Below are positions 1 to 56,304 of a stretch of DNA of 64,000 nt, one piece after another. The position numbers were made by a program, and so were the translations under genes. The notes beneath the pieces are model-generated. The model had not been told where the DNA came from. It did not search any database and worked only from the letters and a program-made list of their open reading frames with translations. Source of the DNA: Candidatus Dormiibacterota bacterium (lineage in GTDB: Bacteria > Chloroflexota > Dormibacteria > Aeolococcales > Aeolococcaceae). How positions within the stretch are numbered: the first letter of the stretch is position 1; each line of letters opens with the position of its first letter. The DNA is taken from contig DASYKI010000016.1 of assembly GCA_035995545.1 (NCBI GenBank), positions 820,335 to 884,334 of the forward strand, written 5' to 3'.

Positions 1-1963
<1,963 letters not shown>

Positions 1964-1967
<4 letters not shown>

Positions 1968-2957: not shown

Positions 2958-4409
2958 GTGAAGGGCTGGCATCCTCGTCGCGTCGCCTGGGCGGCGCTGG
3001 CCGCCGGGCTCGGAGCTGCGGCCGGAGCGATTCCCGCGCACGCCGCGCCCCTCCCGCCCGTGGTCGGGCTGCCCAACTACGGCGGGCCGAGCACCACCGG
3101 CACCGCCGCGATCCGGGCCGACGCCGCCAACGCCCAGCTGCGCGGCGCGGACGGGGCTCCCCTGGACGGGCGCGGGACGTCCGTCGCGATCATCGACACC
3201 GGCGTCGACCCCACCCATCCCGCCTTCGCGCTGCCCGACGGGTCGAGCAAGGTGGCGCTGAGCCTGTCGGCACTGCCCTGCCTGGCCCAGGAGTACACCG
3301 CGCCCACGGACGGATCGTGCATCAGCGCCCTGCCCGCGTCGGTGGACAGCGACACCGGGCACGGCGGGCACGGCAGCATGGTCGCGGGCGTTGCCGTCGG
3401 CACCCCGTACCTGCTGCCGGACGGGACCAGGGTGGGCGGCGTGGCGCCGGGCGCCCGGATCGTGATGATCTCGGCGACGGCGGCGCTGGTGGCCATCGAC
3501 AACGCGTTCTCCTGGGTGCTGCAGCACCACGCGGCGCCGTGCGGGGCCGGTGTGCCGGCGGCGGTCTGCCCGCCGATCCGCGTGCTCAGCTGCTCGTGGG
3601 GGGTGAACGACCCGGTGATCACCGCGCTGGAGGACAGGCTGGCGGCGGCGGGAGTGCTCACGGTGTGGGCCAACGGCAACCAGGGCGGCGACGGCACCAC
3701 CAGCCAGTCGAACCCAGGTCCGGCGGCGGATCCCACGCCGGGCGTGATGAGCGTGGCGTCGTTCGACGACGCCGGGACGGGCACGCGCGACGGCACCGTG
3801 TCCGCGACGTCGTCGCGCGGGGCGGCGGCGAAGCCCGCGACGTGGCCGGACATCTCGGCGCCGGGGGCGAACATCGTGTCGGCGTGCCGACCCTACCTGG
3901 CCATCTGCAACGCCATCGGCACCGGGCCCCGCAACGGGCCGGGGGCGGCCGATGTCGGTACCTACAACACCGCGTCGGGGACGTCCTTCTCGGCGCCCTC
4001 GCTGGCGGGGGTGATCGCCATGCTCTTTCAAGCCGATCCCGACGCAACCGCGGCGCGGATCGACGGCGCCCTGGTCGGGACGGCGTACAAGTACCGCGAC
4101 GGGGCGCCGTACCAGGCGGTCGGGTCGTACACGTCGAGCTTCGACAAGGGCGCCGGCCTGGTGGACGCGTTTGCCGCCGCGCTGGCCCTGGGCGCCAAGG
4201 GTGGCGGCGATCGCGTCGGCGATGTCGGGACCATTGGCCAACGTGTCGCGGCCGAAGCCGGTCCCGCGACGGTGACCGGGCTGCCGAACACCGCCGCCGG
4301 GTCTGGCCAGGCCACGCTTCCCGCGCTGCTCCTGGGTCTCGCTGCCGCGACCGGTGTGCGGCGCATCCGGCAGCGCAGAAACGTTGGCAGGGCTCGAGCG
4401 CGGCGATGA
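2958..4409 (+). CDS. Secreted subtilisin-like serine protease (peptidase S8) with a C-terminal cell-surface sorting-like signal
   Basis: Catalytic motifs IIDTGVD (Asp), HGGHGSMVAG (His) and SGTSFSAPSLAG (Ser). GTG 2958 gives a signal-peptide-like N-terminus (VKGWHPRRVAWAALAAGLGAAAGAIPAHA). The C-terminus has GLPNTAAG, then a hydrophobic stretch, then an Arg-rich tail. The track ORF is 2832..4409 and the start is uncertain. Confidence 0.9.
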   Translation: MKGWHPRRVAWAALAAGLGAAAGAIPAHAAPLPPVVGLPNYGGPSTTGTAAIRADAANAQLRGADGAPLDGRGTSVAIIDTGVDPTHPAFALPDGSSKVALSLSALPCLAQEYTAPTDGSCISALPASVDSDTGHGGHGSMVAGVAVGTPYLLPDGTRVGGVAPGARIVMISATAALVAIDNAFSWVLQHHAAPCGAGVPAAVCPPIRVLSCSWGVNDPVITALEDRLAAAGVLTVWANGNQGGDGTTSQSNPGPAADPTPGVMSVASFDDAGTGTRDGTVSATSSRGAAAKPATWPDISAPGANIVSACRPYLAICNAIGTGPRNGPGAADVGTYNTASGTSFSAPSLAGVIAMLFQADPDATAARIDGALVGTAYKYRDGAPYQAVGSYTSSFDKGAGLVDAFAAALALGAKGGGDRVGDVGTIGQRVAAEAGPATVTGLPNTAAGSGQATLPALLLGLAAATGVRRIRQRRNVGRARARR

Positions 4410-5812
4410 CTCTCGCAACCACTCCGGCCTTGGCCCTGCAGCAGCGACTCGACGAGCTCGCCGCGCGGCACAACGTCGTCGGTGCGTCGTTCGCGGTCCG
4501 GCACGGCGACGAGACCATCGAGGTCGCCACCGGCATCGCCAGCATGCGCACCGGCGCACCGGCAACGCCCGAGACACTCTTCCAGGTCGGCTCGATCACC
4601 AAGGTGTACACGGCGACACTGGTGATGCAGCTCGTAGAACGCGGCGTCCTCGACCTCGACGCGCCGGTGGCGCGCGCGCTGCCCGAGCTGCGTCTCAGCA
4701 CTCCGGACCTGCCCGAGCAGATCACCCTGCGACATCTGCTGACGCACACCAGCGGCATCGACGGCGACCACTTCGCCGACATGGGCCGCGGCGACGACGC
4801 GGTGGAGCGCTACGTCGCATCGTGCCGGCAGCTGCCGCAGATCTTCGCGCCCGGACGGATGTGCTCGTACTCCAACGCGGGGTACGTGATCCTCGGCCGC
4901 GTCCTCGAGGTGACACTGGGGACGACGTGGGACCGCGCGCTCGCGGAGAACGTGCTCAGGCCGCTGCAGTGCGCCGCGACGGTGACCCTGCCGGAGGACG
5001 CGATCCTGCACCCCGTCGCCATCGGGCACCTGCCCGGCGAGGGTGGCGACGTCACCGCGCCGCGTCCCACCCCGGTGTGGTCGCTGCCGCGCTCGGTGGG
5101 GCCGGCTGGACACGTCGTCGCCACGGCAGCGGACGTGCTGCGCTTCGCGCACATGCACCTCGACGGCGGCCGCGCCGCCGACGGCGCCCAGGTGCTCGAC
5201 GCGCAGACGGTGGCCGGCATGCGGCAGCCGCAGGTGGAGCTGATCGACCCCATGCTCGGCGACCACTGGGCGCTGGGCTGGTTCGGCTCGCACTGGGAGG
5301 GCGGCCGCACCGTCGGGCACGACGGCGCCACCATCGGCCAGGGCGCCTTCCTGCGCCTGCTGCCCGACCACCACCTCGCCGCCGTGCTGCTCACCAACGG
5401 CGGCTCGGTGCGCGCACTCTACGAGGACCTGTTCAGCGAGGTGCTCGCCGACCGCGCCGGCGTCGCCCTGCGGCGCACACCGGCGATCCCGCCGCCGGGA
5501 GGCGACACGCACCTCGACGTCGACCTCGATGCCCTCGAAGGCACGTACGAACGCTACGGGTTCCGCTACGAGATCGCCGCGCAGGACGACGGCACGCTGC
5601 AGCTGACGCCGTCGATCACCGTCGACGAGCCGCTGCTGGCCCTGGCCGCGCTGCCCACCCTGCGCATGGTGCCGTACCAGGGACTCACCGTCGTCTGCCA
5701 TCCGCCGGCGCTGCCGCAGGCGCGCGCGACGGGAACCTTCGCCGGCGTCGAGAACGGGCGCGCGCAGTGGCTGCACATCGGTGGCCGGGTGGCGCGCAGA
5801 GTGTCGCGTTGA
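4406..5812 (+). CDS. Serine hydrolase of the beta-lactamase/transpeptidase-like fold (class C / D-aminopeptidase / esterase type), cytoplasmic
   Basis: ATG 4406 overlaps the S8 stop (ATGA). Motifs are SxxK (SITK) and Y-S-N (SYSNAGY). There is no signal peptide, and there is an extra C-terminal domain of about 100 aa. Only the second part of track ORF 3317..5812 is real. Confidence 0.88.
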   Translation: MTLATTPALALQQRLDELAARHNVVGASFAVRHGDETIEVATGIASMRTGAPATPETLFQVGSITKVYTATLVMQLVERGVLDLDAPVARALPELRLSTPDLPEQITLRHLLTHTSGIDGDHFADMGRGDDAVERYVASCRQLPQIFAPGRMCSYSNAGYVILGRVLEVTLGTTWDRALAENVLRPLQCAATVTLPEDAILHPVAIGHLPGEGGDVTAPRPTPVWSLPRSVGPAGHVVATAADVLRFAHMHLDGGRAADGAQVLDAQTVAGMRQPQVELIDPMLGDHWALGWFGSHWEGGRTVGHDGATIGQGAFLRLLPDHHLAAVLLTNGGSVRALYEDLFSEVLADRAGVALRRTPAIPPPGGDTHLDVDLDALEGTYERYGFRYEIAAQDDGTLQLTPSITVDEPLLALAALPTLRMVPYQGLTVVCHPPALPQARATGTFAGVENGRAQWLHIGGRVARRVSR

Positions 5813-8021
5813 TCGAGGAACCGCAGGCCGGCATCGAGGCGGTGCGGGCGGCGGGACGCGCGGCCATGGGCGTCACCGGCCAGGACGTGCGCGAGTCGCT
5901 GCGCAGCGCGCTGCGCGCATCGCACGCGGGGTGGTACCCGCTGCTGGCGCTGGGCCTCCTGGCCATCATCGACACCTTCCAGCTCTACGCCTACGTCACC
6001 CTCGGGCCCGACATCAGCGCCTCGCTGGGAATCAGCAAGACCGCGGTGACCATGATCCTGGTGCTCGACCAGCTGGCCATCGTGCTGGCCAGCCTGGCCG
6101 CCGCGGGGCTCGTCCAGCGCGTGCCGCGGCGCGGCCTGGTGGCCAGCACCACGGGCATGGCCTGGAGCCTGATGACGTTGCTCACCGGACTGGTGACGTC
6201 GATCTGGCAGCTCGGCCTGGTGATGGTCGCCGACGGCGCCAGCAGCGGGTCGGTGCACGCGGTGCACAAGCCGCTGCTGCTGGACACCTATCCGGCCGCG
6301 ACGCGCGTGCGTGTGCTCAGTGCGTACCAGGTCGCCGCGGTGACGGGGACCATCCTCTCGCCGGCGCTGGTCGCGCTCCTCACCGGAGTCGTGCATCTGG
6401 GCTGGCGTGGCGTCTTCGTGGTCATGGGCCTGATCTGCGTGGCCAGCAGCCTGATCGCGGTGCGGCTGCGCGATCCCGGTTTCGGCGGCCAGGACACCGG
6501 CCGGCTGCGCGACGCCGTGCGCGCCGACGCGACCCGCCGCGACGGTGGCGGCAGCGCAGCGCCGGTTCCGCAGAGTGGCGATCCCGCAACCAGCCTGCGC
6601 GTGATGGAGATCGTGCAGCGCCTGATGATCATCCCCACCATGCGGCGCACCCTCGCCGTCGCCGCCGCGCTCGGCGTGGGACTGGTGCCGCTCAACAGCT
6701 ACTTCTCCTTCTTCCTCGAACAGCGCTGGGGCCTGGGGCCGACGCAGCGCGCGCTGTTCTTCGCCCTGGTGCCTGTGTTCACCGCGATCGCGCTGGTGGT
6801 CGGCTCGCGACACGGCGAGTCGCTGTACCGCCGTGACCCTGCCCGGCTGATGCGCCTCGGCGCGCTGCTCATCGGTGGCGCCGCGGTCAGCCTGATCGCG
6901 GTGGTGGCGGCGCCGGTGTTCTGGATGATGGCGCTCGCCTTCGCGCTGACCAGCGCGATGCTGGCCGGCGTGGTGCCCGCGCTGTACACCGGTGCGCTGT
7001 CGGTGGTGGCGCCGCGCATGCGGCCGCACGCGTCGGCGCTGCTCGGCGTCTTCCTGGTTGCCGTCGGCGGCATCCTGGGCCTGCTGGTGCTGGGCAGCGC
7101 CGATTCGCGCTACGGGCCGGCGGGGTCGGTGGTGGCGGTGTGCTTCCCGTGCATCGTGGCCGCGCTGCTGATGCGCTCGGCGGCGGGCAGCGTCAACACC
7201 GATCTCGACAACCTCATCGACGAGATCGTCGAGGCGGAGCAGCTGACCCGCCTCGACGCTCGCGGCGTGCAGCTCCCGCTGCTGAGCTGCCGGCGGGTGA
7301 GCTTCTCCTACGGCGCGCTGCAGGTGCTCTTCGACGTCGACTTCAGCGTCGAGGACGGCGAGATGGTGGCCCTGCTCGGCACCAACGGCGCGGGCAAGTC
7401 GACGTTGCTGCGCGTCATCGCCGGCACCGGCCTGCCCTTCAGCGGCAGCGTGCGCTATCGCGGCGCGGACATCACCTATCTCGACGCCGAGCGCCGCGTG
7501 CGGCTCGGCATCGCCCAGGTCCCGGGCGGGCGCGCCGTGTTCGGGCGCATGTCCGTCGTCGACAACATGCGCGTCTTCGGCTTCACCCACGGACGCGACC
7601 GCCGCGCCGTCGACCGCGGTATCGAGCGCAGCCTGGCCGCGTTCCCCCGTCTCGGCGAGCGGCGCAACCAGGCGGCGGGAACGCTGAGCGGCGGCGAGCA
7701 GCAGATGCTGGCTCTGTCCAAGGCGCTCATCCTCGAGCCGAGACTGCTGTGCATCGACGAGCTCTCGCTGGGACTGGCGCCCAAGGTGGTCGGCGAGCTG
7801 CTCACCATGGTGCGCGCCATCAACGCGACGGGCACCGCGGTGGTGCTGGTCGAGCAGTCGGTCAACGTCGCGCTGTCGCTGGTCGAGCGTGCCTATTTCA
7901 TGGAGAAGGGGGAGGTGCGCTTCCAGGGCCGCGCGTCGGAGCTGCTCGACCGCGACGACCTGCTGCGCTCGGTGTTCCTCGAAGGCGCGGCGCGCGGTCT
8001 CGCCGGCGCCGGGACCGGGCG

Positions 8022-8025
<4 letters not shown>
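5809..8025 (+). CDS. Fusion protein: MFS-like polytopic membrane domain plus LivF-like ABC ATPase
   Basis: This is the real part of track ORF 4354..8025. Start candidates are TTG 5809 (TTGA overlap with the upstream stop at 5810-5812), GTG 5842 and ATG 5866. About 12 hydrophobic helices are followed by Walker A GTNGAGKST, signature LSGGEQQM and Walker B LLCIDELS. Confidence 0.85.
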
Positions 8026-10847
<2,822 letters not shown>

Positions 10848-10858
10848 GGAGGACGACC

Positions 10859-13366
10859 GTGACCAACCACCGAGCCACCGTCGCGCCTCTCCGCGCGCTG
10901 CTCTGCGCCGCACTCGCCGTCGCCGCGTCGGCCGGTGCCGCACTCAGCTTCGTCCGCGCCGCCGGCGCCGAGGTGGCCGGCACCCCGATGAACCTCCACG
11001 TTGACGCGCAGGAGTACGCGGCGACGGCTCCCGCCGACCCGTACCAGCACGACGCGGCGGCCATCCACGTCAGCGTCGCCGGCGGCCAGGACACCACGCG
11101 CAGCTACGTCCACGTCGACCTGGCCGGGCTGGTCGGCGGCGCCATGCCGACCTCGGTCCTGCTCAGCCTGACTCCCAACGGCGACGCCGCCGCCAACGCC
11201 AACGGCAGCGCGGCGACGCTGCAGGCGTGTCCGCTGCTGGGATCGCTGGAGCCGTTCAACCCGACCTCGCCGCCCGGTTTCGACTGCACCAGCGCGGCGC
11301 ACGGCACGCCGGCCGCCGCGGGCACGTGGACCTTCGAGCTGGCCCCGCTGATGCAGCGCTGGCTGCTCGAAACCAACCGCGGCGTCGCCATCGTCGCCGA
11401 CCACAGCGCCGCGACCGCGACCTGGTTCACCGCCTTCGATAGGAGCAAGACACGGGCGATCGCGGTCGTGCCGGTGAGCGACTCGCCACCGCTGTCGACG
11501 TACACCTTCCCCGCGGTGCCGGCAGCGCCGCCACCCGCACCGCCGCCCGCGGCCGTGGCGCCGCCGTTCCTGTCAGTACCGGCCACAACTCCGGGGCCAC
11601 CGAGCGCGGCAACACCGGGGCCGTCGCCGTCGCCGAGCAGCGCCGCGAGTGCAGCCGGCGGAGCCGGCACCGGCACCCCACCCGCGCCGGGTGCCGCCAC
11701 CATGCACGTGGAACCCGCCAGCACCTGGCTGTGGTGGCTGCTCGGCTCCGTCCTGCTCGGCGCCGCAGCCGCGCTGGCCATGGTGGTGCAGCGCGCGGTG
11801 CGAGATGCCCACCGTCTTCCCGACGCCGCCGCGCTGCGCGCCGCCCTGCGCCATCCCGACCTGCGCCTCTCTCGCGCCGGCGCGCTGGTCATGATCGGCG
11901 CCGTCGTCGCCGTCGGCTTCTCCAACCGCCTCGCCGTCCAGGGCAGTCCCGCCGCAGCGGGCAGCTCCGGACCGCAGGCGGCTGCGGGCGCAACCCCCAG
12001 CAGCGGCGCAGCCGGCGGCGGCAACACCGGCGCCACGGCGCCACCACCCGGCGCAGCGAGCGGGCCCGCCGCCGCACAGAGCGCAGCCGCCGCCGCCCAG
12101 AGCGCCGCCGCCGCCGCAGCAGCAGCGGGAGCGCAGGCACCCACCGGCGACATCCCCGGCGTGACCGCCACCACCATCCGCATCGGCTTCATGACCGAGA
12201 CCAACCGCTCGGCGGGCAACGGCGCCATCGGAGCCAAGAACATCGGCGACTACGGCAACGTGCCCGCCCAGGCGCAGGCGATGGCCGACTGGCTCAACCG
12301 CAACGGGGGCATCGCCGGACGCCGGGTGATCCCGGTGATGGAGAACTTCGACGCCTCCAACACCGACCCCAACCAGGAGGCGGCGCTCTGCACCAAGTTC
12401 ACCCAGGACGACCACGTCTTCTCCGTCGTCGACATCGAGTCCAACCTCGACTACGGAGCGTGCTACGCGCACGCGCACACACTCGTGGTCGAGGCGCAGA
12501 CCTACCAGGGCGACACGCAATTGATGGACCACCTCGCCCCGTACGTGTTCGACTCGACCACGCCACCCAACGAGCGCGCCTTCCAGGTGCACGCCGACGG
12601 CCTTGCCCAGCAGGGATTCTTCGGCAAGACCGACAAGGTGGGCATCATCGTCGCCGACGATCCGCTGATCCGCCGCGACTTCACCGAGGTGGCCATGCCG
12701 CGCCTCGCCCGCGCCGGGGTGACCAATCCCGACCTCTACTACGTCAACCCCTACTCCGACACCGGCACCAAGGCGCGCGACCTGGGCACCGCGGTGACCC
12801 GCATGCACAGCAACGGCGACACCGAGGTCATGCTCTTCGGCGACTCCGGGGGCGGCGCCACCCTGATCACCATGGCCGCGGCCAAGGGCCAGGGCTGGTA
12901 CCCCAAGTGGGGTCTCGACACCAGCAGCGCACCCGGCGCGCTGGAGACCATCAGCCAGATCTCCGACGAGATGAAGACCGCGGTGGTGGTCGGCTACAAC
13001 CGCACCTACGACGCGGAGAGCGACAGGGGCGGCGAGCCGGTGCCGGCCTCGCCGCTGGAAAAGCTCTGCGTCGACACCTACAGGGCGGCGGGGATCAGCT
13101 TCGCCACCCGGCTCAACTCGGTGGTCGCCTACCGCTACTGCGACTACGCCTTCCTGCTGCACCAGGCCTCGCAGGGGCTCGGCGCCAACCTGAGCATCCA
13201 GACCCTGATGGCGCAGGCGTGGCACCTGGGCAGCTCGTACATGTCGGTCAACGCCTACCACGCCACCTTCAACGGCCGGCCCTACGGCACCGACGGCTAC
13301 CGCATGCTCGGCTACGACACCGGGTGCTCATGCTTCAAGTACAGCAGCCCGACCTACACGTTCTGA
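10859..13366 (+). CDS. Composite envelope protein: signal peptide + unknown beta-rich domain + Pro-rich linker + 2 TM helices + Ala/Gly linker + Liv-type (type I PBP) substrate-binding domain
   Basis: GTG 10859 is preceded by GAGGAGG (6-nt spacer) and lies 11 nt after the upstream stop. The signal peptide is LLCAALAVAASAGAALS. The TM helices are WLWWLLGSVLLGAAAALAMVV and ALVMIGAVVAVGF. The SBP-like part starts GVTATTIRIGF. Only the last 835 codons of track ORF 7889..13366 are real. Confidence 0.8.
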   Translation: MTNHRATVAPLRALLCAALAVAASAGAALSFVRAAGAEVAGTPMNLHVDAQEYAATAPADPYQHDAAAIHVSVAGGQDTTRSYVHVDLAGLVGGAMPTSVLLSLTPNGDAAANANGSAATLQACPLLGSLEPFNPTSPPGFDCTSAAHGTPAAAGTWTFELAPLMQRWLLETNRGVAIVADHSAATATWFTAFDRSKTRAIAVVPVSDSPPLSTYTFPAVPAAPPPAPPPAAVAPPFLSVPATTPGPPSAATPGPSPSPSSAASAAGGAGTGTPPAPGAATMHVEPASTWLWWLLGSVLLGAAAALAMVVQRAVRDAHRLPDAAALRAALRHPDLRLSRAGALVMIGAVVAVGFSNRLAVQGSPAAAGSSGPQAAAGATPSSGAAGGGNTGATAPPPGAASGPAAAQSAAAAAQSAAAAAAAAGAQAPTGDIPGVTATTIRIGFMTETNRSAGNGAIGAKNIGDYGNVPAQAQAMADWLNRNGGIAGRRVIPVMENFDASNTDPNQEAALCTKFTQDDHVFSVVDIESNLDYGACYAHAHTLVVEAQTYQGDTQLMDHLAPYVFDSTTPPNERAFQVHADGLAQQGFFGKTDKVGIIVADDPLIRRDFTEVAMPRLARAGVTNPDLYYVNPYSDTGTKARDLGTAVTRMHSNGDTEVMLFGDSGGGATLITMAAAKGQGWYPKWGLDTSSAPGALETISQISDEMKTAVVVGYNRTYDAESDRGGEPVPASPLEKLCVDTYRAAGISFATRLNSVVAYRYCDYAFLLHQASQGLGANLSIQTLMAQAWHLGSSYMSVNAYHATFNGRPYGTDGYRMLGYDTGCSCFKYSSPTYTF

Positions 13367-13404: not shown

Positions 13405-14991
13405 GTGGTCACCCTGGAGCAGGTCCTCGACTCGCTCGGCGTCGACGTGCTGCGCCCGCTGGCCGCGCCGCAGGGGCTGCAGATGCCGGTGTCGGCGTTG
13501 AGCATCTTCGACCCCGACGATCCCACCCCGGCCGGCGAGGGCACGGTGGTTCTCGGCATCGGCCTGCGTCCCGACCGCGACCTGCGCCAGGTGATGGAGC
13601 GGCTGGCCGAGCAGGGCGCGGTGCTGGCCATCAAGGTTCCCGCCGGCGTGCAGGCGCGCCTGGCGGCCGACGCCGAGTCGCTCGGCCTCACCGTGCTGGC
13701 GGTTGCGCCGGGCGCGGCCTGGGTGCACCTCGTCGCCCTGCTGCGCTCGGTGATGGAGTCGGTGCCCGGCGAGCGGTCCGGCGAACGCCTCGGTGGCGCG
13801 GCGGCGGGCGACCTCTTCGCGGTGGCCAACGCGGTGGCCGCACTGGTCGACGCACCGGTGACCATCGAGGACGCGCAGTCGCGCGTGCTCGCCTACTCGG
13901 GCCGCCAGGACGAGGCCGACGAGGCGCGCAAGCTGACCATCCTCGGCCGCCAGATCCCCGAGGCCTACTACCGCAGGTTCCAGCGCGACGGCGTCTACCG
14001 CCGCCTCTCGAGCAGCCGTGAGCCGCTCTACCTCGACAGCCTCGGCCCCGACGTGCTGCCGCGCGTCGCCGTCGGTGTCACCGCGGGCGACGAGGTGCTC
14101 GGTTCCATCTGGGCAGCGGTGCGCACCAGGCCCAGCGACGCGCAGATGCGCGAGCTGGCCGAGGCGGCCAGCTTCGTCGCCATCCACCTGCTGCGCCACC
14201 GCCTCGCCGTCGACGTGCAGCGCAGCCTGCACACAGATCTGGTCGCTGTTGTCATCAACGGGGGCAGCCTCGCCGCCGACGCGGCCGGCCGGCTCGGCCT
14301 GGTGGGGGAGGGGTTTCGCGTCCTCGCCGTCGGCCTGCGTCCCGATGCCCAGGAGGACAACGAGCTGGCCCTGCTGCGCGCCTGGGACACGCTGTCGATG
14401 CACCTCTCGGTGGTGCACCGGCGCGCCGCCAGCGGCCTGGTCCAGGGTGTCGTCTACGCGGTGCTGCCCGCGCCGTCCGACCCCGCGCAGAGCCGCCGCG
14501 CCGCCGAGCAGGCGGCGGAGGGGTTCCTGGCGCGCATCCCCGCACCGCGCCGCGAGCAGCTCATCGTCGCCGCCGGCGGACACGCCGCCGACCTGGTAGC
14601 GCTGCCCCAGTCGCGGCGCGACGCCGACCGCGTGCTCCGCGTCCTGGGGTCTCGCACACCACGCGCGCAGTCGAGCGTCGGTGCCATCGACGACCTGCGC
14701 CTGCAGGTGCTGCTGCTCCGTCTCGCCGAGCTGGCCGACGAGGAGTCGATCTCCGAGACCGGCCCGCTGCACGACCTGGTCGAGCACGACCGCCGCCACC
14801 GCACCCACCACGTCGCCACCCTGCGCGCCTACCTCGACTGCTTCGGCGACGTCCTCGCCGCCGCGCGCTCCCTCGGCGTCCACCACAACACCTACCGCTA
14901 CCGGTTGCAGAAGCTGCGCCAGCTCCCCGGCATCGACCTCGACGACCCCGACCAGCGTCTCGCCCTGATGCTGCAGCTGCGGTTGACGTAG
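13405..14991 (+). CDS. PucR/CdaR-family transcriptional regulator
   Basis: The start is GTG 13405 (VVTLEQVLDSLG). There is a C-terminal PucR-type HTH (LRAYLDCFGDVLAAARSLGVHHNTYRYRLQKL). This is the real part of track ORF 11731..14991. Confidence 0.88.
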   Translation: MVTLEQVLDSLGVDVLRPLAAPQGLQMPVSALSIFDPDDPTPAGEGTVVLGIGLRPDRDLRQVMERLAEQGAVLAIKVPAGVQARLAADAESLGLTVLAVAPGAAWVHLVALLRSVMESVPGERSGERLGGAAAGDLFAVANAVAALVDAPVTIEDAQSRVLAYSGRQDEADEARKLTILGRQIPEAYYRRFQRDGVYRRLSSSREPLYLDSLGPDVLPRVAVGVTAGDEVLGSIWAAVRTRPSDAQMRELAEAASFVAIHLLRHRLAVDVQRSLHTDLVAVVINGGSLAADAAGRLGLVGEGFRVLAVGLRPDAQEDNELALLRAWDTLSMHLSVVHRRAASGLVQGVVYAVLPAPSDPAQSRRAAEQAAEGFLARIPAPRREQLIVAAGGHAADLVALPQSRRDADRVLRVLGSRTPRAQSSVGAIDDLRLQVLLLRLAELADEESISETGPLHDLVEHDRRHRTHHVATLRAYLDCFGDVLAAARSLGVHHNTYRYRLQKLRQLPGIDLDDPDQRLALMLQLRLT

Positions 14992-47354: not shown

Positions 47355-47662
47355 CGGCGCCTGCCGCGCACGTTGTGAACCGCCATGTCGTCCTCAACCA
47401 ACGCCTGTCCCCGCTCGCCGATTATGCGCGCTTTCCGGCGTGTGCAAGCCTGCAAACACATGGGGGATGCAACGAAGCTGCAACGCTCGACGCGTTGACC
47501 GGCGGTTGATTCACAAAGGCTTCACCGGCTGCCGTCCGCGAAATGCGGGCGCGTCGCTGGACGTTTCGTCTAGCTTGCGGCCCGACGGTACGGGGCGGCG
47601 CCGCGCTTGCGGCGGAGCGGCCGGCGGCCCCATCATGTCGCCCCGGAACGGGTTGGATCGGG

Positions 47663-49204
47663 TTGGAGGAGCCTGCCATCAGCAACATCGCCGAGCTGTT
47701 CGACGACGGCCTGCGCCGTCACGGCGAGCATCCCTCGCTCTGGTTCGAGGGACGCTGGTACGGCAGCACCGAGCTCAACCGCGCCGGCCACGGCCTCGCC
47801 GGCGGGCTGCGCGACCTCGGCCTCCAGCCGGGCGAGCGCGTCGTGGTGACGATGATGAACTGCCCCGAGGTGGGCATCAGCTACATGGGCGCCTGGACCG
47901 CGGGGCTCGCCGTCGTGCCGGTGCTCTTCCTGCTCACCGCCGAAGAGCTGCGCATGATCGCCGAGGACTCCGGCGCCACCGCCATCGTCACCACGCCGGA
48001 GCTGCTGCCCAAGGTGCGCGAGGTGGCCGCGGCGGTGCCGTCGCTGCGCCACGTGATCTGCGCCGGCGGTGGCGCCGGCGACGGCGTGCTCGACTTCGCC
48101 GAGCTCTGCGACACCGCTGCCGTCGACACGCCCCTGCCCGTCGACGACGGCGAGGCCGCGGTGATCCTCTACACGTCCGGCACCACCGGGCGTCCCAAGG
48201 GCGTGATGCTCACCCACGGCAACCTGCACGCCATGGCCGAGAACGTGCACGCGGCCTGGGACCCGGGTGACGGCCACGTCGGCCTGGCCTGCCTGCCCCT
48301 CTCGCACGTCTACGGGTTGAGCACGACTCTGGCAGGAACCTACCGCCGCGGCCAGGCGGTGCTGATGCGGTGGTTCGACCCCACGCAGGTGCTGCAGCTC
48401 ATCGAGGAGCACCGCGTCACCATGACCGCGCTGGTGCCGGCGATGATGGTCGGGCTGCTCGACCATCCCGACCGGCCGTCGCGCGACCTCTCGTCGCTGC
48501 AGTTCGTCATCAGCGGCGCGGCGCCGTTGCCACTCGACCTGCTGCAGCGCTTCGAAAGCGCCTTCGGCTGCACCGTCCTGCAGGGCTACGGGCTCAGCGA
48601 GAGCGCGGCCCAGTGCGCGCTGAACACGCCGCAGGCCAACCGTCCCGGCTCGGTGGGGCGGCCGGTGCCCGGTGTCGAGGTGGCCATCCTCGGCAGCGAC
48701 GGCGCGCCGCTCGCCGCCGGTGAGGACGGCGAGATCGCCATGCGCGGCGCCAACGTGATGCGCGGCTACCACGGCATGCCCGAGGAGTCGGCGAAGACCG
48801 TCGTCGACGGCTGGCTGCGCACCGGCGACGTCGGCCACCTCGACGCCGACGGCTTCCTCTACGTGCTCGACCGCAGCAAGGACCTGATCATCCGCGGCGG
48901 GTTCAACATCATCCCGCGCGACGTCGAGGAGGTGCTGGTGGCCCATCCCGCGGTGTCGCAGGCGGCGGTGATCGGCTTGCCGCACGAGCGACTCGGCGAG
49001 GTGGTGCACGCAGTCGTCGTCCTGACACCCGGCGCCAGTGCCACGGACGAGGAGCTGATCGCCCACTGCCGCGAGCGGCTCGCCTCGTACAAGTGCCCGC
49101 AGAGCCTGGAGCTTCGCGGCGGGCTGCCGACCAACAGCACCGGCAAGGTGCTCAAGCGCCAGCTGCGCGAGGAGCACGTCGCAGCGGCCGCCACGGCCTC
49201 ATGA
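47663..49204 (+). CDS. AMP-dependent acyl-CoA synthetase/ligase (FadD-like)
   Basis: The AMP-binding motif is ILYTSGTTGRPKGVMLTHGN. Other blocks are GYGLSE and TGDVGHLDADGFLYVLDRSKDLIIRGGFNI. The start is uncertain: TTG 47663 is assumed, and a perfect GGAGGAG sits 6 nt before ATC 47678. Confidence 0.88.
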   Translation: MEEPAISNIAELFDDGLRRHGEHPSLWFEGRWYGSTELNRAGHGLAGGLRDLGLQPGERVVVTMMNCPEVGISYMGAWTAGLAVVPVLFLLTAEELRMIAEDSGATAIVTTPELLPKVREVAAAVPSLRHVICAGGGAGDGVLDFAELCDTAAVDTPLPVDDGEAAVILYTSGTTGRPKGVMLTHGNLHAMAENVHAAWDPGDGHVGLACLPLSHVYGLSTTLAGTYRRGQAVLMRWFDPTQVLQLIEEHRVTMTALVPAMMVGLLDHPDRPSRDLSSLQFVISGAAPLPLDLLQRFESAFGCTVLQGYGLSESAAQCALNTPQANRPGSVGRPVPGVEVAILGSDGAPLAAGEDGEIAMRGANVMRGYHGMPEESAKTVVDGWLRTGDVGHLDADGFLYVLDRSKDLIIRGGFNIIPRDVEEVLVAHPAVSQAAVIGLPHERLGEVVHAVVVLTPGASATDEELIAHCRERLASYKCPQSLELRGGLPTNSTGKVLKRQLREEHVAAAATAS

Positions 49205-49376
49205 CTTGCAAAATCCACAAACGCACCAACTAGTGCAATAGCAACGAAAATCAGGCTCCGGTTGGAGGCCGCGACGCCACTTCGCGCTTGACAGTCGGGG
49301 TGCGCCCTTCGACACTTCCGGTCGGAAGGTCTTGTGGGAACACATCCCGCACCTCGTCGGTTGGAGGCTTGCCACC

Positions 49377-51203
49377 ATGCGCATCCTGCTGTCCACTCTC
49401 GGACGTTATGCGCCTGTCGGTGTGCTGGCGGGCATCCAGCTTGCGGTGATCGCCATGGCGCCCTCGGTGGCGCCGTCCAACCTGGCCGAGGCGCCGGCGG
49501 CGATCGGCAGCAGCGCCGACGCCGGCACGGGAGCCGGTGGCGCCGGCGGCGCGGGCGGTGCTGCATCCGGTGGCGCCGCGGGTGCGGTCACCGGACCGGT
49601 GACGGGAGGCGCGGTCGCCGGAGGGGCCGCTGCGGCCGGCGGCCCGGCCGCGGCGCACGCCGCCGCGGCGGGACCGGTGGCGGCCAGCGGCGACACCTCG
49701 CACTGCGTCGGCGGCCGGGAGTTCGACGTGGCCCTTGCCTGGTTCGCGCCGCCGTGCGTGGCGGGGACGCCCGGCGGCACCGACATCGCCAACGGCGGCG
49801 CGACCTACCGCAGCGGGGTGACCGGCAACACCATCGAGATCGTCGACTACATCACCAACTACGGCGCCGAGATCAACGCCATCCTGGCGGCGCAGCACCA
49901 GCTGGTGACCGCCGAGGAGGCCACCAAGTACGACGCCGCCGTCCAGAACTTCCTCAACAAGAAGTTCGTGCTCTGGGGCCGGAAGATCCACATCGACACC
50001 GTCGCCGGCCAGTGCAACTACCAGGACGACAACTGCATGATCCCCGAGCTCGAAGGGGTGATCAAGAACTACCACCCGTACATGATGTTGTGGTTCACCA
50101 CGGTGTGCCCCGAGTGCTTCAGCTACATCGCCAGCCGCGGTGTCATCGCCGTCGGTGGGCTGGGCTTCAGCGGCGACTTCGCCAAGGCCAATGCGCCGTT
50201 CTACTACTCGGCGACGGGCTCCTCGACGCTCATCGAGGAGGCCTTCGCGGAGTGGTGGTGCTCGAGCATGTCGAGCGCCAACTCCAGCCGGGTGGTGACC
50301 TACACGGGCGACCAGAACGTCAGCCAGAAGATGAACGGCCGAAAACGCGTCCTCGGCTTCATCTCGCCCAACAAGCCGGACAACGAGAACACCATCCAGA
50401 ACTACCTCTGGCCGCGCCTCAAACAGCTCTGCGGTGAGGATCCCAGCACCTTTCACCACTACTGGTACGCCCAGGACATCAACACCGCGGCGCAGCAGGT
50501 GCAGGCCGGCAACGCGCAGATGGACACGCCGACCAACCCGGCCACCTCGGTGGTCTGCATCTGCGACGTGGTCGCGCCCGAGTTCACCTACCAGGGCGAG
50601 CAGAACAACAACTACTGGCCGGAGAACATCATCGCCGACGTGCAGGGCATGGGCCAGGACCCCTCGGCGCAGCCCTACGACGCCGCCTTCTCCTGTCCCA
50701 ACGGCAACGCCAGCAATCCCTGCTCCTTCGACGACGCGGTGGGAGTCACCGTCGCCGATCCCCCGGAGGACCAGAACAACGACCCCGGCATCCGCATCTG
50801 GCACGAGGGCGGCGGCACCGGGCCGCTTCCCGGCGACTCCCAGGGTGACCAGCTCAGCGGGATCCTCGCCTCGTCGCTGTCCGCACAGTGGGTGATGATG
50901 GCCACCCTGATCGAGAACGCGGGACCGCGCTTGGAGCCCTACTCGATGCAGAAGGCGGCGCTGCAGATCCCGCCGATCAGCGGTGGCAACCACCCGGTGC
51001 TGCAGTTCAGCGCCGACGACTGGCACTGGACGCGAAGCGTGCGCGTGGTGTGGTGGGACGCGCATCGCAAGTCGTCGTACAACAACCAGAACGGCACCTG
51101 GGTGAGCTGGCCGAGCCCGACCACCTGGTTCACCATGCGCAGCTTCCCCGACGAACCGGGCGGGCCGCCAGGCATCCCGCCGGCGCGGCAGCGAACCTCG
51201 TGA
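49377..51203 (+). CDS. TM-anchored, Cys-rich divergent Liv-type (type I PBP-like) substrate-binding protein
   Basis: ATG 49377 has GGAGG 9 nt upstream. There is an N-terminal TM helix (VGVLAGIQLAVIAMAPSV), a Gly/Ala-rich linker, then GVTGNTIEIVDYI, the same kind of start as in SBP 10859..13366. I count 12 Cys in the ectodomain. Confidence 0.7.
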   Translation: MRILLSTLGRYAPVGVLAGIQLAVIAMAPSVAPSNLAEAPAAIGSSADAGTGAGGAGGAGGAASGGAAGAVTGPVTGGAVAGGAAAAGGPAAAHAAAAGPVAASGDTSHCVGGREFDVALAWFAPPCVAGTPGGTDIANGGATYRSGVTGNTIEIVDYITNYGAEINAILAAQHQLVTAEEATKYDAAVQNFLNKKFVLWGRKIHIDTVAGQCNYQDDNCMIPELEGVIKNYHPYMMLWFTTVCPECFSYIASRGVIAVGGLGFSGDFAKANAPFYYSATGSSTLIEEAFAEWWCSSMSSANSSRVVTYTGDQNVSQKMNGRKRVLGFISPNKPDNENTIQNYLWPRLKQLCGEDPSTFHHYWYAQDINTAAQQVQAGNAQMDTPTNPATSVVCICDVVAPEFTYQGEQNNNYWPENIIADVQGMGQDPSAQPYDAAFSCPNGNASNPCSFDDAVGVTVADPPEDQNNDPGIRIWHEGGGTGPLPGDSQGDQLSGILASSLSAQWVMMATLIENAGPRLEPYSMQKAALQIPPISGGNHPVLQFSADDWHWTRSVRVVWWDAHRKSSYNNQNGTWVSWPSPTTWFTMRSFPDEPGGPPGIPPARQRTS

Positions 51204-53521: not shown

Positions 53522-53523
53522 CC

Positions 53524-55149
53524 GTGGAGCCCGGCCCGTTCCTCAGCTGCCGCACACTCGACGTCGGCTACGCAGGGGTGCAGGTGCTGTTCGGCGTCGA
53601 CTTCGACGTGGAGCGCGGCGAGATCGTCGCCCTGCTCGGCACCAACGGCGCCGGCAAGTCCACGCTCCTGCGCGCCATCTCGGGGCTGGTGCATCCCAGC
53701 AGTGGCACCATCGTCTTCGACGGCAGGGTGATCACGGAAGCCGAGCCGCACCAGACCGCGCGCATGGGCATCGTGCACGTCCCCGGCGGCCGCTCCGTGT
53801 TCCCGACGATGACCGTCTCCGACCATTTCAAGGCGGCCAGCTGGCTGCTCGGCGGCGACTGTCCCGACGTCAGCGCGCGCACCGACGAGGTGCTGCAGCG
53901 CTTCCCGCACCTGCAGCGGCGCCAGCACACCATGGCCGGCAACCTCAGCGGCGGTGAGCAGCAGATGCTGGGGCTGGGCATGGCGTTCCTGGCCCGTCCC
54001 AAGCTGCTGGTCATCGACGAGCTCTCGCTGGGACTTGCGCCCGCGGTGGTCGAGCTGCTGCTCGACATGGTGCGGGCCATCCACACCGAGGGGTCGACCA
54101 TCGTGCTCGTCGAGCAGTCGGTCAACCTCGCCCTCACCCTGGCGCAGCGCGCCTACTTCATGGAGAAGGGCGAGGTGCGATTCCAGGGCCCCGCCCCGCA
54201 GCTGCTCGAACAGCGCGAGCTGCTGCGCTCCGTCTTCCTCGAAGGCGCCGCCGCCGCGCTGCCGGGTGCTGCGCCGAGTCGCGACGTCAGCCTGCGCGGG
54301 CGCGACGCGCGCACCGCCGATGCCGATGCCGATGCCGCACAACCTCCGCTGCTCGAAGTGCGCGGCCTGAGCCGCAGCTTCGGTGGCGTCGTCGCCGTCG
54401 ACGGCGTCAGCTTCGCCCTGCAGCCGCACGGCATCCTCGGCTTCATCGGACCCAACGGCGCCGGCAAGACGACGCTGTTCGACATGATCAGCGGCCTGCT
54501 GCCCGTCGGCGCCGGCGAGATTCGCCTGCGCGACCGCGACATCACCCGCTGGTCGGCGCCGCGACGTGCCATGGCGGGGCTCGGTCGCTCGTTCCAGGAT
54601 GCGCAGCTCTTCCCCTCACTGACGGTGGCCGAGAACCTGGCCATCGGCCTGGAGCGCCACGTCGCGGTGCGCGACCACCTCGCCGCCATGCTGGCGCTGC
54701 CCGCCATCCAGGAGTCCGAGCGCCAGGTCGCCTTCGCCGTCGGTGACCTGGTCGAGCTCTTCGGCCTCGGCAACTACCGCGACAAGTTCGTCGGCGAACT
54801 GTCGACCGGCTCCCGGCGCATCGTCGACCTGGCCATGGCGCTGGCCCACGACCCCGACGTGCTGCTCCTCGACGAGCCCTCGTCCGGCATCGCCCAGCGC
54901 GAGACGGAGGCGCTGGTGCCGCTGCTGCGTCGCGTGCGCAGCGAGACGGGATGCGCGCTGCTGGTGATCGAGCACGACATGCCGCTGATCACCACCCTCG
55001 CCGACGAGCTGATCGCGCTCGACCTCGGCCGTGTCATTGCCCGCGGCCGTCCCGACCAGGTGGTCAACGACCGCGAGGTGGTGCGGGCCTACCTCGGCGG
55101 GGACGTCGCCGCCATCCAGCGCTCCGGCGTGTTGGGAGGAATCGCATGA
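53524..55149 (+). CDS. Fused LivF-like + LivG-like tandem ABC ATPase
   Basis: The start is GTG 53524 (GGGGGAGGG upstream), with GTG 53518 as an alternative. Domain 1 has GTNGAGKST, LSGGEQQM and LVIDELS. Domain 2 has GPNGAGKTT, LSTGSRR and LLLDEPS. There are long identical peptide blocks with genes 5809..8025 and 8022..10847. Confidence 0.9.
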   Translation: MEPGPFLSCRTLDVGYAGVQVLFGVDFDVERGEIVALLGTNGAGKSTLLRAISGLVHPSSGTIVFDGRVITEAEPHQTARMGIVHVPGGRSVFPTMTVSDHFKAASWLLGGDCPDVSARTDEVLQRFPHLQRRQHTMAGNLSGGEQQMLGLGMAFLARPKLLVIDELSLGLAPAVVELLLDMVRAIHTEGSTIVLVEQSVNLALTLAQRAYFMEKGEVRFQGPAPQLLEQRELLRSVFLEGAAAALPGAAPSRDVSLRGRDARTADADADAAQPPLLEVRGLSRSFGGVVAVDGVSFALQPHGILGFIGPNGAGKTTLFDMISGLLPVGAGEIRLRDRDITRWSAPRRAMAGLGRSFQDAQLFPSLTVAENLAIGLERHVAVRDHLAAMLALPAIQESERQVAFAVGDLVELFGLGNYRDKFVGELSTGSRRIVDLAMALAHDPDVLLLDEPSSGIAQRETEALVPLLRRVRSETGCALLVIEHDMPLITTLADELIALDLGRVIARGRPDQVVNDREVVRAYLGGDVAAIQRSGVLGGIA

Positions 55150-56195: not shown

Positions 56196-56304
56196 CCGCG
56201 CCACGTCGGCGCCTCAGCCCGCCGCTGACCCGCCCCTGCGGCGCGGCGCGCGTCTGCGGCATCCTTCTCGGGGCTGCCGGACGCAGACGGTGTGGAGGAC
56301 GCTG

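What the first reader, a model, noticed from the sequence alone, without database searches (positions are those of the whole stretch)
5809..8025. MFS-like 12-helix domain covalently fused to a LivF-type ABC ATPase
Seen in sequence: one uninterrupted ORF encodes about 430 aa with about 12 hydrophobic helices, followed by a complete LivF-like ATPase (GTNGAGKST, LSGGEQQM, LLCIDELS). Established knowledge: HAAT/Liv importers use LivH and LivM as their membrane domains, and both are already present (fused to LivG) in the next gene. MFS proteins are secondary carriers that do not use ATP. The transporter would therefore carry a third, MFS-like membrane module tethered to one of its two ATPases. The paralogous system at 53524..55149 lacks this module and has LivF fused to LivG instead. 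Inference: the MFS-like module may be a regulatory or sensing domain, or a coupled second translocation path.
Basis: partly seen in the sequence, partly recalled or inferred. Interest (0 to 1): 0.65.

Follow-up and report, generated by a model that had tools for sequence, protein, structure and literature searches.

The report
MFS carrier fused to ABC ATPase
A genuine, widely conserved gene of uncultured soil actinobacteria joins a complete secondary-carrier (MFS) membrane domain to one of the two ATPases of a Liv-type ABC importer; this hybrid architecture sits unnamed in databases and its function has never been tested.

Summary
Window 5809..8025(+) is one 738-aa gene. It holds a full 12-helix MFS domain (Pfam MFS_1, 90 bits), a conserved helical linker and an intact LivF-type ABC ATPase. 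Independent contigs from the source soil metagenome show no stop or indel at the junction.

The fusion is not a one-off. More than 115 protein clusters and 57 of 63 gene copies in 61 genome loci carry it. These come from Actinomycetota, Dormibacterota and Chloroflexota, plus one cultured species, Phytoactinopolyspora halotolerans. The fused gene almost always sits beside a LivH-LivM-LivG fusion, which supplies the only partner ATPase.

The MFS clade also has free-standing members, found in hydrolase/amidase/peptidase gene clusters. It occurs in other fusion orders too: MFS-LivF-LivG, LivG-MFS and MFS-hydrolase. The domain keeps the hallmarks of a working carrier.

My best reading is a two-chain Liv-type (HAAT-family) importer with a third, carrier-competent membrane module tethered to LivF. 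This module probably acts as a coupled second path or a gate. That mechanism is inferred, not shown.

I found no paper on this fusion and no solved structure of LivH/LivM relatives. I rate it a new variant of a known kind, of moderately high interest.

The parts
5809..8025 (+). MFS-LivF fusion gene (738 aa, TTG start, TGA stop)
   Evidence: The AF2 model has mean pLDDT 93.5 and pTM 0.91.
5809..5934 (+). N-terminal cytoplasmic segment (residues 1-42) with a conserved amphipathic helix (family consensus LRxxARxALGVxG)
   Evidence: Alignments (R17 and G21 at 90% or more); helix 6-19 in the model.
5935..7185 (+). 12-helix MFS domain (residues 43-459)
   Evidence: Pfam MFS_1, 90 bits. Helices. Foldseek matches to Spns1/2, DgoT and an Rv1410 homologue, TM-scores up to 0.72/0.82. 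Residue conservation.
7186..7278 (+). Conserved helical linker (residues 460-490, motif DLDxxxDEIVExEE; D465 invariant)
   Evidence: pLDDT in the low to high 90s across the linker.
7279..8022 (+). LivF-type ABC ATPase domain (residues 491-738). Walker A K530, signature S627-G629, Walker B D650 and E651 are invariant in the 28-sequence alignment; K530, S627-G629 and D650-E651 remain invariant in the 117-sequence one.
   Evidence: 1ji0, E 1e-51; 1ji0, TMt 0.89.
8022..10847 (+). LivH-LivM-LivG fusion (941 aa): both canonical membrane domains plus the partner ATPase
   Evidence: ATGA overlap with the preceding gene.
10859..13366 (+). Secreted domain, then a TM anchor, then a divergent LivJ/K-type (Peripla_BP_6) substrate-binding domain. 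The start is GTG at 10859 (preceded by AGGAGG) or GTG at 10844.
   Evidence: Peripla_BP_6 28.7 bits, below cut-off 31.7; homologous to the binding proteins of related loci, E 1e-32 to 1e-57. Start candidates.
4406..5812 (+). Cytoplasmic beta-lactamase-family (PF00144) serine hydrolase, translationally coupled upstream
   Evidence: The SITK motif and the lack of a signal peptide are read directly.
2958..4409 (+). Secreted subtilisin-like S8 protease, first gene of the apparent operon
   Evidence: The same S8, beta-lactamase-family, MFS-LivF, LivHMG, binding-protein order occurs in L004.
13405..14991 (+). PucR-family regulator (C-terminal HTH_30). Start uncertain: 13330 or 13405.
   Evidence: PucR-type regulators also flank a free-standing MFS relative.
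53524..55149 (+). Paralogous LivF-LivG fusion of a second Liv-type system that has no MFS module (comparison partner, not part of the same machine)
   Evidence: Its relative L003 carries MFS-LivF-LivG.

Best explanation
SHOWN. 5809..8025 is a real gene. Its product has a complete MFS-fold membrane domain, a rigid conserved linker and an intact LivF-type ATPase. It is translationally coupled to LivH-LivM-LivG, and the fusion is conserved across phyla.

INFERRED, high confidence. The two polypeptides, together with the membrane-anchored binding protein of 10859..13366, form one HAAT-type ABC importer. Its LivG/LivF ATPase pair sits under LivH/LivM, so the MFS domain is held in the membrane beside them at 1:1 stoichiometry.

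INFERRED, moderate to low confidence. The MFS module still works as a carrier. It descends from free-standing secondary carriers found in hydrolase/amidase/peptidase clusters. It keeps 12 helices and conserved cavity helices TM1/4/7. It keeps the intramembrane acids D55 and D142 and the motif-A-like cytoplasmic arginine loops of both halves. The most likely mechanism is a two-path uptake unit. One path is ATP-driven, depends on the binding protein and has high affinity. The other is proton-linked and runs through the MFS module. Both would serve the same nutrient class, here probably amino acids, small peptides or amides, given the S8 protease, the PF00144 hydrolase and the PucR regulator. The nucleotide state of LivF would be transmitted through the linker to gate the MFS cytoplasmic face, or the reverse.
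For: - Gene reality.
- Conservation: more than 115 clusters share the architecture at 45-84% identity.
- A scan seeded only on MFS peptides recovered 63 copies. Of these, 57 are fused in frame to LivF, 2 are cut by contig ends and 4 lie in frameshift-ridden long-read MAGs.
- LivHM lies within 1 kb in 42 of the 63 copies, and in 37 of those it is fused to LivG. No other LivF is present in the loci.
- Several fusion orders involve the same partners: 72 MFS+NBD, 12 MFS+2 NBD and a LivG-tail+MFS form.
- Fold: pLDDT 93.5 and pTM 0.91 for the whole chain. The MFS-only model matches Spns1/2, DgoT, MHAS2168, MCT1 and OxlT.
- Carrier hallmarks: TM1, TM4, TM7 and TM11 are the most conserved helices. D55 is 95% conserved and D142 82%. 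R108, R166, R168, R200, R314 and R405 are 100% conserved.
- Free-standing relatives in catabolic clusters: P0138 and P0166. They are nested among the fused forms in a rough NJ tree.
- ATPase motifs are invariant.
Against: No experiment exists for any member. Canonical motif A is degenerate in the main clade: VQxxPRR, with Asp replaced by Gln. Gene neighbourhoods differ between loci, with amino-sugar, acyl-CoA or peptidase genes, yet the MFS part stays similar. That fits a generic role (gate, sensor or scaffold) at least as well as a substrate-specific second path. The MFS-less paralogue in the same window suggests the ABC core works without the module. A 150-aa lipoprotein accompanies the fusion in 57 of 63 copies but is absent here. 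Its role is unexplained.
Confidence: 0.4

Rival explanations
1. Sensor or regulator. The MFS domain no longer moves substrate. It binds a ligand, or senses proton-motive force through D55/D142, and switches the LivF ATPase on or off. This would resemble MFS-type sensors such as UhpC or the yeast transceptors (named from general knowledge).
For: The domain is similar across loci with very different metabolic neighbours, which points to a generic role. The linker and cytoplasmic loops are rigid and highly conserved: helix 263-275 has a mean top-residue frequency of 0.81, and DLD at 465-467 is conserved. Whole-chain pTM is high. Motif A is degenerate. The ABC core exists without the module in the same genome.
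Against: The cavity helices TM1/4/7 are among the most conserved, and all 12 helices are kept. Close free-standing relatives look like ordinary carriers. Sequence alone cannot separate a sensor from a carrier.
Confidence: 0.25
2. Anchor or assembly scaffold. LivF is the only subunit not otherwise tied to the membrane, because LivG is fused to LivH-LivM. The MFS domain would keep LivF at the membrane in 1:1 ratio, or offer a docking surface for the extracytoplasmic partners (the lipoprotein or the anchored binding protein). It would have no transport cycle of its own.
For: There is a general trend towards fusing all subunits in these lineages: LivH-LivM-LivG, LivF-LivG and MFS-LivF-LivG. Periplasmic motifs are conserved (LGPEISxxLGIS; ERWxLGPxxR with R314 invariant), and a lipoprotein gene is tightly coupled upstream in 57 of 63 copies.
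Against: A single helix would be enough as an anchor. Purifying selection on the intramembrane acids and on the cavity-lining helices would not be expected for a passive anchor.
Confidence: 0.17
3. Rosetta-stone fusion of two independent transporters. The MFS carrier and the ABC importer act in the same pathway, for example import plus product export, but without allosteric coupling. The fusion would only ensure co-expression and co-localisation.
For: The same MFS clade is also fused to, or adjacent to, alpha/beta-hydrolases (P0161, L066, L067). It therefore tends to fuse with pathway partners.
Against: The linker is conserved in sequence and predicted to be rigid. Fusion to either ATPase of the same ABC family recurs in at least three orders.
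Confidence: 0.15
4. Artefact: a missed stop, a frameshift or a chimeric assembly joined two separate genes.
For: The sequence is a metagenome assembly of 72% GC, where long spurious ORFs are common.
Against: Independent contigs agree base for base across the junction. Fifty-seven independent genomes and more than 115 protein clusters carry the same in-frame fusion with a conserved linker. The coding GC3 signature is continuous.
Confidence: 0.01

Closest known systems
E. coli LivJ/K-LivHMGF and the HAAT family of ABC importers (TC 3.A.1.4; includes UrtABCDE)
   Same: Two BPD_transp_2 membrane domains (LivH, LivM). A heterodimeric ATPase pair: LivG with its BCA_ABC_TP_C tail, and LivF. A Peripla_BP_6-type binding protein. 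One operon.
   Different: LivH, LivM and LivG form a single chain. LivF carries a 490-residue N-terminal MFS domain plus linker. The binding protein is divergent (below the Pfam cut-off) and fused to an extra secreted domain and a TM anchor. The LivF score is far below the NCBIfam equivalog cut-off (193 against 441), so this is a family member, not an orthologue of E. coli LivF.
Free-standing MFS carriers of the same clade (P0138, P0166 and about 30 further representative clusters)
   Same: They share the family motifs (RLRDPGxGRxD, VPTxRR, ERWxLG) and score 220-400 bits against the MFS-only profile.
   Different: They end just after TM12 and have no ATPase. They sit next to alpha/beta-hydrolase, amidase, M16 peptidase, PF00144 and PucR genes, not next to ABC genes.
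ABC importer ATPases that carry an accessory domain, such as NrtC/CmpC of cyanobacterial nitrate/bicarbonate importers or MalK/MetN regulatory domains (from general knowledge; PMC10945777 appeared but was not read)
   Same: One ATPase subunit of an importer is extended by an extra domain thought to modulate transport.
   Different: Those accessory domains are soluble and C-terminal. Here the extra domain is a 12-helix integral membrane carrier fold and is N-terminal.
LprG-Rv1410 (a lipoprotein plus MFS pair of mycobacteria); the structure of the homologue MHAS2168 (8pnl) is the second-ranked Foldseek hit
   Same: An actinobacterial MFS protein encoded directly after a small lipoprotein gene. 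That arrangement holds for 57 of 63 family members.
   Different: The 150-aa lipoprotein here has no Pfam match, and I did not test it for relatedness to LprG. The window's own system lacks it. Rv1410 is not fused to an ATPase. The fold match is no better than to many other MFS proteins.
Half-size ABC exporters (a membrane domain N-terminal to the ATPase)
   Same: Same domain order: a membrane domain, then a helical connection, then the ATPase.
   Different: The membrane domain here has an MFS fold, not an ABC exporter fold. Foldseek alignments to Atm1-type exporters have rmsd above 20 A.

Membership tests
Major facilitator superfamily (Pfam MFS_1, PF07690) | Profile score above the curated threshold | tested here: met
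   90.4 bits against a gathering score of 33.4, residues 49-424.
Major facilitator superfamily (Pfam MFS_1, PF07690) | Twelve transmembrane helices in two six-helix bundles (the MFS fold) | tested here: met
   AF2 models with pLDDT 93.5 and 86.6. Foldseek matches to Spns1 (TMq 0.72, TMt 0.82), Spns2, DgoT, MCT1 and OxlT.
Major facilitator superfamily (Pfam MFS_1, PF07690) | Motif A, GxxxD(R/K)xGR(R/K), in the TM2-TM3 loop | tested here: inconclusive
   The window has GLVQRVPRRG. The two arginines are kept (R107 90%, R108 100%) but the Asp is Gln. The distant branch P0118/P0119 has a canonical DRxxRR.
Major facilitator superfamily (Pfam MFS_1, PF07690) | Carrier activity (uniport, symport or antiport) | not testable with these tools
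   No experiment or expression data are available.
HAAT-family ABC ATPase, LivF type | Walker A, Q-loop, LSGG signature, Walker B with catalytic Glu | tested here: met
   GTNGAGKST, Q570, LSGGEQQM and LLCIDE are present. K530, S627-G629 and D650-E651 are invariant in 117 sequences.
HAAT-family ABC ATPase, LivF type | NCBIfam LivF equivalog cut-off (orthology with E. coli LivF) | tested here: not met
   193.5 bits against a cut-off of 441; UrtE scores 179.8 against 285.8. It is LivF-like, not an equivalog.
HAAT-family ABC ATPase, LivF type | Encoded with LivG and LivH/LivM partners | tested here: met
   The next gene is LivH-LivM-LivG. This adjacency is conserved.
HAAT ABC importer (TC 3.A.1.4) as a whole system | Extracytoplasmic binding protein of the LivJ/K (Peripla_BP_6) type | tested here: inconclusive
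   The C-terminal 412 aa of the 10859..13366 product score 28.7 bits against a cut-off of 31.7 (E 1.4e-6). They are homologous to the binding proteins of related loci.
HAAT ABC importer (TC 3.A.1.4) as a whole system | Physical complex of the subunits and ATP-driven uptake | not testable with these tools
   No multimer prediction was available. No solved structure of any LivH/LivM relative was found by sequence search.

The most novel reading that the evidence does not exclude
The LivF ATPase directly powers or gates the MFS carrier. ATP binding and hydrolysis would drive, or license, alternating access of an MFS fold. The result would be a true hybrid of primary and secondary active transport, possibly fed by the same binding protein. 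This would be a mode of energising an MFS carrier that has not been described.
Probability: 0.15. Interest if true: 0.9.

Novelty: new variant of a known kind. Interest (0 to 1): 0.6.

Why it matters
ABC transporters and MFS carriers are the two largest transporter superfamilies, and textbooks treat them as mechanistically separate: ATP-driven versus gradient-driven. Here a carrier-competent MFS domain is obligatorily tethered to an ABC ATPase in a conserved, multi-phylum family. That raises a directly testable question: can the two machines be allosterically or energetically coupled?

The family also shows that Liv-type (HAAT) importers in abundant, mostly uncultured soil Actinomycetota and Dormibacterota have a subunit plan unlike the E. 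coli model. They use heavy fusion, an extra membrane module, a dedicated lipoprotein and divergent binding proteins. Current annotation labels the product either "MFS transporter" or "LivF", and each label hides half of the protein. One cultured carrier, Phytoactinopolyspora halotolerans (L044), makes experiments possible.

Tried and rejected
- Foldseek with the whole-chain model returned only ATPase matches and meaningless exporter alignments (rmsd above 20 A). I therefore built and searched an MFS-only model.
- The first genome scan, with a 12-sequence MFS alignment, failed because no stretch was conserved enough. A 5-sequence alignment worked.
- I suspected that the N-terminal secreted domain of the 832-aa protein and the 352-aa protein of the second system were homologous. 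BLASTP found nothing significant (E 1.9). By eye they share an ACPL...YDC-like cysteine pattern, but I do not claim homology. The same holds for the 607-aa protein against the binding-protein part.
- I looked for an MFS gene near the second system. There is none.
- I looked in the window for the family's 150-aa lipoprotein. There is none among ORFs of 90 aa or more.
- Eight literature searches and one paper look-up found no description of an MFS-LivF or MFS-ABC fusion, and no LivH/LivM cryo-EM study. The library lacks most subscription journals and TCDB itself, so absence is not proven.
- PDB sequence searches found only ATPase domains. Nothing matched LivH/LivM.
- The idea that this MFS clade is always fused was rejected. 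Free-standing members exist.
Full report

The window is 72% GC, so long open frames occur by chance on both strands. The frame of 5809..8025 nevertheless carries a continuous coding signature, with third-position GC above 0.85. Its translation gives a 738-aa protein.

Pfam finds MFS_1 at residues 49-424 (90.4 bits, curated cut-off 33.4) and ABC_tran at 508-651. NCBIfam ranks LivF first for residues 491-725 (193 bits) and UrtE second (180 bits). Both scores are below the equivalog cut-offs, so the ATPase is LivF-like and belongs to the HAAT family, but it is not an orthologue of E. coli LivF. The closest solved structure by sequence and by fold is the Thermotoga LivF-like protein 1ji0 (E 1e-51; TMt 0.89).

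The start is TTG at 5809, overlapping the stop of the upstream gene in the sequence TTGA. The stop overlaps the ATG of the next gene in ATGA. The protein database independently holds exactly this 738-aa product (P0001).

The window comes from a soil metagenome run that holds 99% of its sampled words. That run's independently built contigs cover 5600-7401 in one piece with no difference, then continue to 8300 with no substitution or indel reported. Bins of very high depth at 7329-7419 and 7602-7783 coincide with the Walker A and signature regions; I take them to be words shared with other ABC genes of the community.

**2. Surroundings in the window**

The next gene, 8022..10847, has two BPD_transp_2 stretches (LivH and LivM) followed by a LivG-type ATPase with the BCA_ABC_TP_C tail.

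The gene after that, 10859 (or 10844)..13366, encodes four parts in order: a signal sequence with a roughly 200-aa secreted domain, a proline-rich stretch, one TM helix, and a C-terminal domain of about 410 aa. That C-terminal domain scores just below the Peripla_BP_6 threshold (28.7 against 31.7 bits). It is clearly homologous to the binding proteins of related loci (E 1e-32 to 1e-57).

Two genes lie upstream. One is a secreted S8 subtilase (2958..4409). The other is a beta-lactamase-family (PF00144) serine hydrolase (4406..5812), which has an SITK motif and no signal peptide. Both are joined to their neighbours by 4-nt overlaps. A PucR-type regulator follows. The apparent operon therefore runs from 2958 to 13366.

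It contains only one LivF, the fused one, and only one LivG, the one fused to LivH-LivM. The LivG/LivF pair that HAAT transporters need (established knowledge for the Liv system) can therefore form only between these two polypeptides. This is the main argument that the MFS domain is physically part of the transporter.

**3. The second system**

Its LivF half is 57% identical to the fused LivF, and no MFS gene lies nearby.

A relative of this system does carry the module. In locus L003 the order is a 622-aa secreted protein, LivH-LivM, then MFS-LivF-LivG (984 aa, P0119), then a 336-aa secreted protein. The 622-aa protein matches the window's 607-aa protein (E 2.6e-16). The MFS module is therefore an accessory that is present or absent within one transporter subtype.

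**4. How widespread is the fusion?**

A protein search returned more than 115 clusters (clustered at 90% identity) with the same MFS_1 + ABC_tran architecture. They show 45-84% identity over the full length. They come from MAGs labelled Actinomycetota, Acidimicrobiales, Frankiaceae, Dormibacteraeota and Acidobacteriota. Their database names are either "MFS transporter" or [quoted passage not shown].

To avoid bias from the ATPase, I scanned one genome per species (185,579 species) with two peptide patterns taken only from the MFS part. This gave 60 loci. Nearly all are MAGs of Actinomycetota (Acidimicrobiia, Mycobacteriales, Frankiales, Nitriliruptorales, Microthrix), Dormibacterota and Chloroflexota. 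One is labelled Burkholderiales. One is a cultured species, Phytoactinopolyspora halotolerans.

I then annotated all loci with phmmer:
- There are 63 MFS copies in total, and 57 are fused in frame to LivF.
- Two copies are cut by contig ends.
- Four copies lie in long-read MAGs whose genes are visibly broken by frameshifts, with the LivF part in the adjacent frame.
- LivH-LivM lies within 1 kb in 42 copies, and in 37 of those it is fused to LivG. Where found in the other copies, it lies within about 3 kb.
- A binding-protein homologue is present in 45 loci.

Locus L004 repeats the window's gene order exactly: S8, beta-lactamase family, MFS-LivF, LivHMG, then an 829-aa binding protein that is 64% identical to the window's. 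It also carries a second MFS-LivF system in tandem.

**5. The MFS domain itself**

AlphaFold2 on a 117-sequence alignment gives mean pLDDT 93.5 and pTM 0.91 for the whole chain. The model shows a short N-terminal amphipathic helix, twelve long helices, a helical linker and the ATPase. The high pTM suggests a defined orientation between the two domains, but I could not inspect coordinates.

An MFS-only model (pLDDT 86.6) matches canonical MFS structures. The best are Spns2 (8ex5), the Rv1410 homologue MHAS2168 (8pnl), DgoT (6e9n) and Spns1 (9boi, TMq 0.72, TMt 0.82). MCT1, OxlT, NorC and others follow with similar scores, so no subfamily can be assigned.

Conservation across 114 family members:
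- TM1, TM4, TM7 and TM11 are the most conserved helices.
- The amphipathic helix before TM7 (residues 263-275) is the most conserved element of all.
- D55 in the middle of TM1 is 95% conserved, and D142 in TM4 is 82% conserved.
- R108, R166, R168, R200, R314 and R405 are invariant.
- Family-specific motifs include RLRDPGFGRxD after TM6, ERWxLGPxxR on the outer face between TM7 and TM8, and DLDxxxDEIVExEE in the linker.

Canonical motif A is altered in the main clade (VQxxPRR, Asp replaced by Gln) but canonical in the P0118/P0119 branch. In MFS proteins generally, TM1, 4, 7 and 10 line the cavity (general knowledge). Conservation of TM1/4/7 and of intramembrane acids is what one expects of a domain that still binds something in its cavity.

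**6. Origin of the module**

I ran a profile of the MFS part alone against 1.84 billion representative proteins. It found 506 with E at or below 1e-30. The best 153 classify as follows:

| Class | Count |
|---|---|
| MFS + one ATPase domain | 72 |
| MFS + two ATPase domains | 12 |
| Complete MFS, nothing after TM12 | 34 |
| Fragments | 26 |
| Other | 9 |

The "other" group includes an MFS + alpha/beta-hydrolase fusion (P0161) and a protein with a LivG tail in front of the MFS (P0184).

Two of the free-standing forms were checked in their genomes and are real. P0138 lies between an alpha/beta-hydrolase and an amidase/GMC-oxidoreductase group. P0166 lies between a PucR-type regulator and an alpha/beta-hydrolase, two M16 peptidase genes and a PF00144 gene. 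Two more, on short contigs, are also not followed by an ATPase.

In a rough neighbour-joining tree the free-standing forms are nested among the fused ones. This suggests repeated fusion or fission, but the tree is not robust enough to count events.

The module therefore descends from ordinary secondary carriers that work in hydrolytic catabolic clusters. It has been joined to HAAT ATPases in at least three orders: MFS-LivF, MFS-LivF-LivG and LivG-MFS.

**7. What it most likely does**

Shown:
- a real fused gene;
- a complete MFS fold;
- an intact ATPase;
- obligatory pairing by gene content;
- deep conservation.

Inferred with high confidence: one HAAT-type importer built from two chains plus an anchored binding protein, with the MFS domain as a third membrane module at 1:1 stoichiometry.

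Inferred with modest confidence (about 0.4): the module is still a carrier and provides a second, proton-linked path or gate that is coupled to LivF through the rigid linker.

The rivals are:
- a ligand or pmf sensor that regulates the ATPase (0.25);
- a passive anchor or docking scaffold (0.17);
- a fusion of two independent transporters without allostery (0.15);
- an artefact (0.01).

The main arguments against my preferred reading are these. The module looks generic across loci with very different neighbours, such as an amino-sugar cluster in L005 and acyl-CoA metabolism in L002. The ABC core exists without it in the same window.

The likely substrate class of the window's own system is amino acids, small peptides or amides. 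This rests only on the co-transcribed S8 protease, the PF00144 hydrolase and the PucR regulator, and it is a weak inference. PF00144-like genes lie within 10 kb of 23 of 63 copies, but I did not measure a genomic background rate.

**8. Comparison with what is known, and novelty**

The system is a member of the HAAT family by its LivH/LivM, LivG and LivF-like parts, and the N-terminal domain is a member of the MFS. The combination is what is unusual.

Known ABC importers do carry regulatory domains on their ATPases, but those are soluble and C-terminal (general knowledge). Half-size ABC exporters have the same domain order but a different membrane fold. Eight literature searches found no description of this fusion. 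No LivH/LivM relative has a solved structure detectable by sequence.

The architecture is visible in public databases but only under half-names. I therefore rate it a new variant of a known kind. It is uncharacterised rather than undiscovered. Interest is about 0.6: a transporter specialist would be surprised by an obligatory MFS-ABC ATPase fusion, and it makes the question of cross-talk between the two transport principles testable. No functional evidence exists yet.

Noticed in passing
L001 1785-2222; L002 9538-10008; L004 1505-1951; L005 9537-10004; and 57 of 63 copies in L006-L065: A lipoprotein of about 150 aa lies directly upstream of MFS-LivF in almost every relative. It has a signal peptide with a lipobox Cys, no Pfam match, and the consensus FRxDxRL...P...V.LP.tv.W...FAVFVDRxPxPPG...H..TVVLLD..G.RIGE. 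It stays next to MFS-LivF even when LivHMG is elsewhere in the locus. It is absent from the window and from the window's ortholog in L004.
   Followed up: partly
window 10859-13366: The binding protein is unusual. It has a secreted cysteine-containing domain of about 200 aa (no Pfam match), a Pro-rich stretch, a TM helix and an Ala/Gly/Ser-rich spacer, and only then the divergent Peripla_BP_6 domain. The N-terminal domain recurs fused to binding proteins in L004, L006, L011 and L014, and as a separate gene in L015 and L040.
   Followed up: partly
window 47660-57078: The second Liv-type system consists of a 607-aa secreted protein with no Pfam match, LivH-LivM, LivF-LivG and a 352-aa secreted, C-terminally anchored protein. 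It is flanked by an acyl-CoA synthetase and an enoyl-CoA hydratase. Its putative binding protein (49380-51203) has no detectable similarity to Peripla_BP_6.
   Followed up: partly
window 2958-4409: The S8 subtilase ends with LPNTAAG, a hydrophobic stretch and a basic tail, which looks like a sortase (LPXTG-type) cell-wall sorting signal. Four consecutive genes (S8, PF00144, MFS-LivF, LivHMG) are chained by 4-nt start/stop overlaps.
   Followed up: no
P0161 (718 aa); L066 910-2999; L067 8001-10120: Free-standing members of the same MFS clade are fused to, or overlap by 4 nt with, an alpha/beta-hydrolase (Abhydrolase_1/S33-like) gene. This is a second recurrent partnership of the carrier clade.
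   Followed up: partly
L004 1-17543: One MAG contig carries two complete MFS-LivF/LivHMG systems in tandem. One has the lipoprotein. The other is the window-type system with the S8 and PF00144 genes.
   Followed up: no
L039, L054, L061, L063, L065: In several long-read MAGs (MFD isolates) the MFS-LivF and LivHMG genes are split over many frames. This looks like assembly indel error rather than pseudogenes.
   Followed up: no
window 3-1967 (-): A UvrA-like double-ABC excinuclease paralogue runs off the left end of the window.
   Followed up: no
L030: One locus with the fusion comes from a MAG labelled Burkholderiales, while all others are Actinomycetota, Dormibacterota or Chloroflexota. This could be mis-binning or horizontal transfer. 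I did not check.
   Followed up: no
L005 12169-18914: In a Frankiaceae MAG the MFS-LivF gene is followed by SIS, ROK kinase, PIG-L deacetylase, GH20 hexosaminidase and DUF6259 genes. This suggests an amino-sugar or chito-oligosaccharide substrate for that member. The family's substrates are therefore clearly not limited to amino acids.
   Followed up: no
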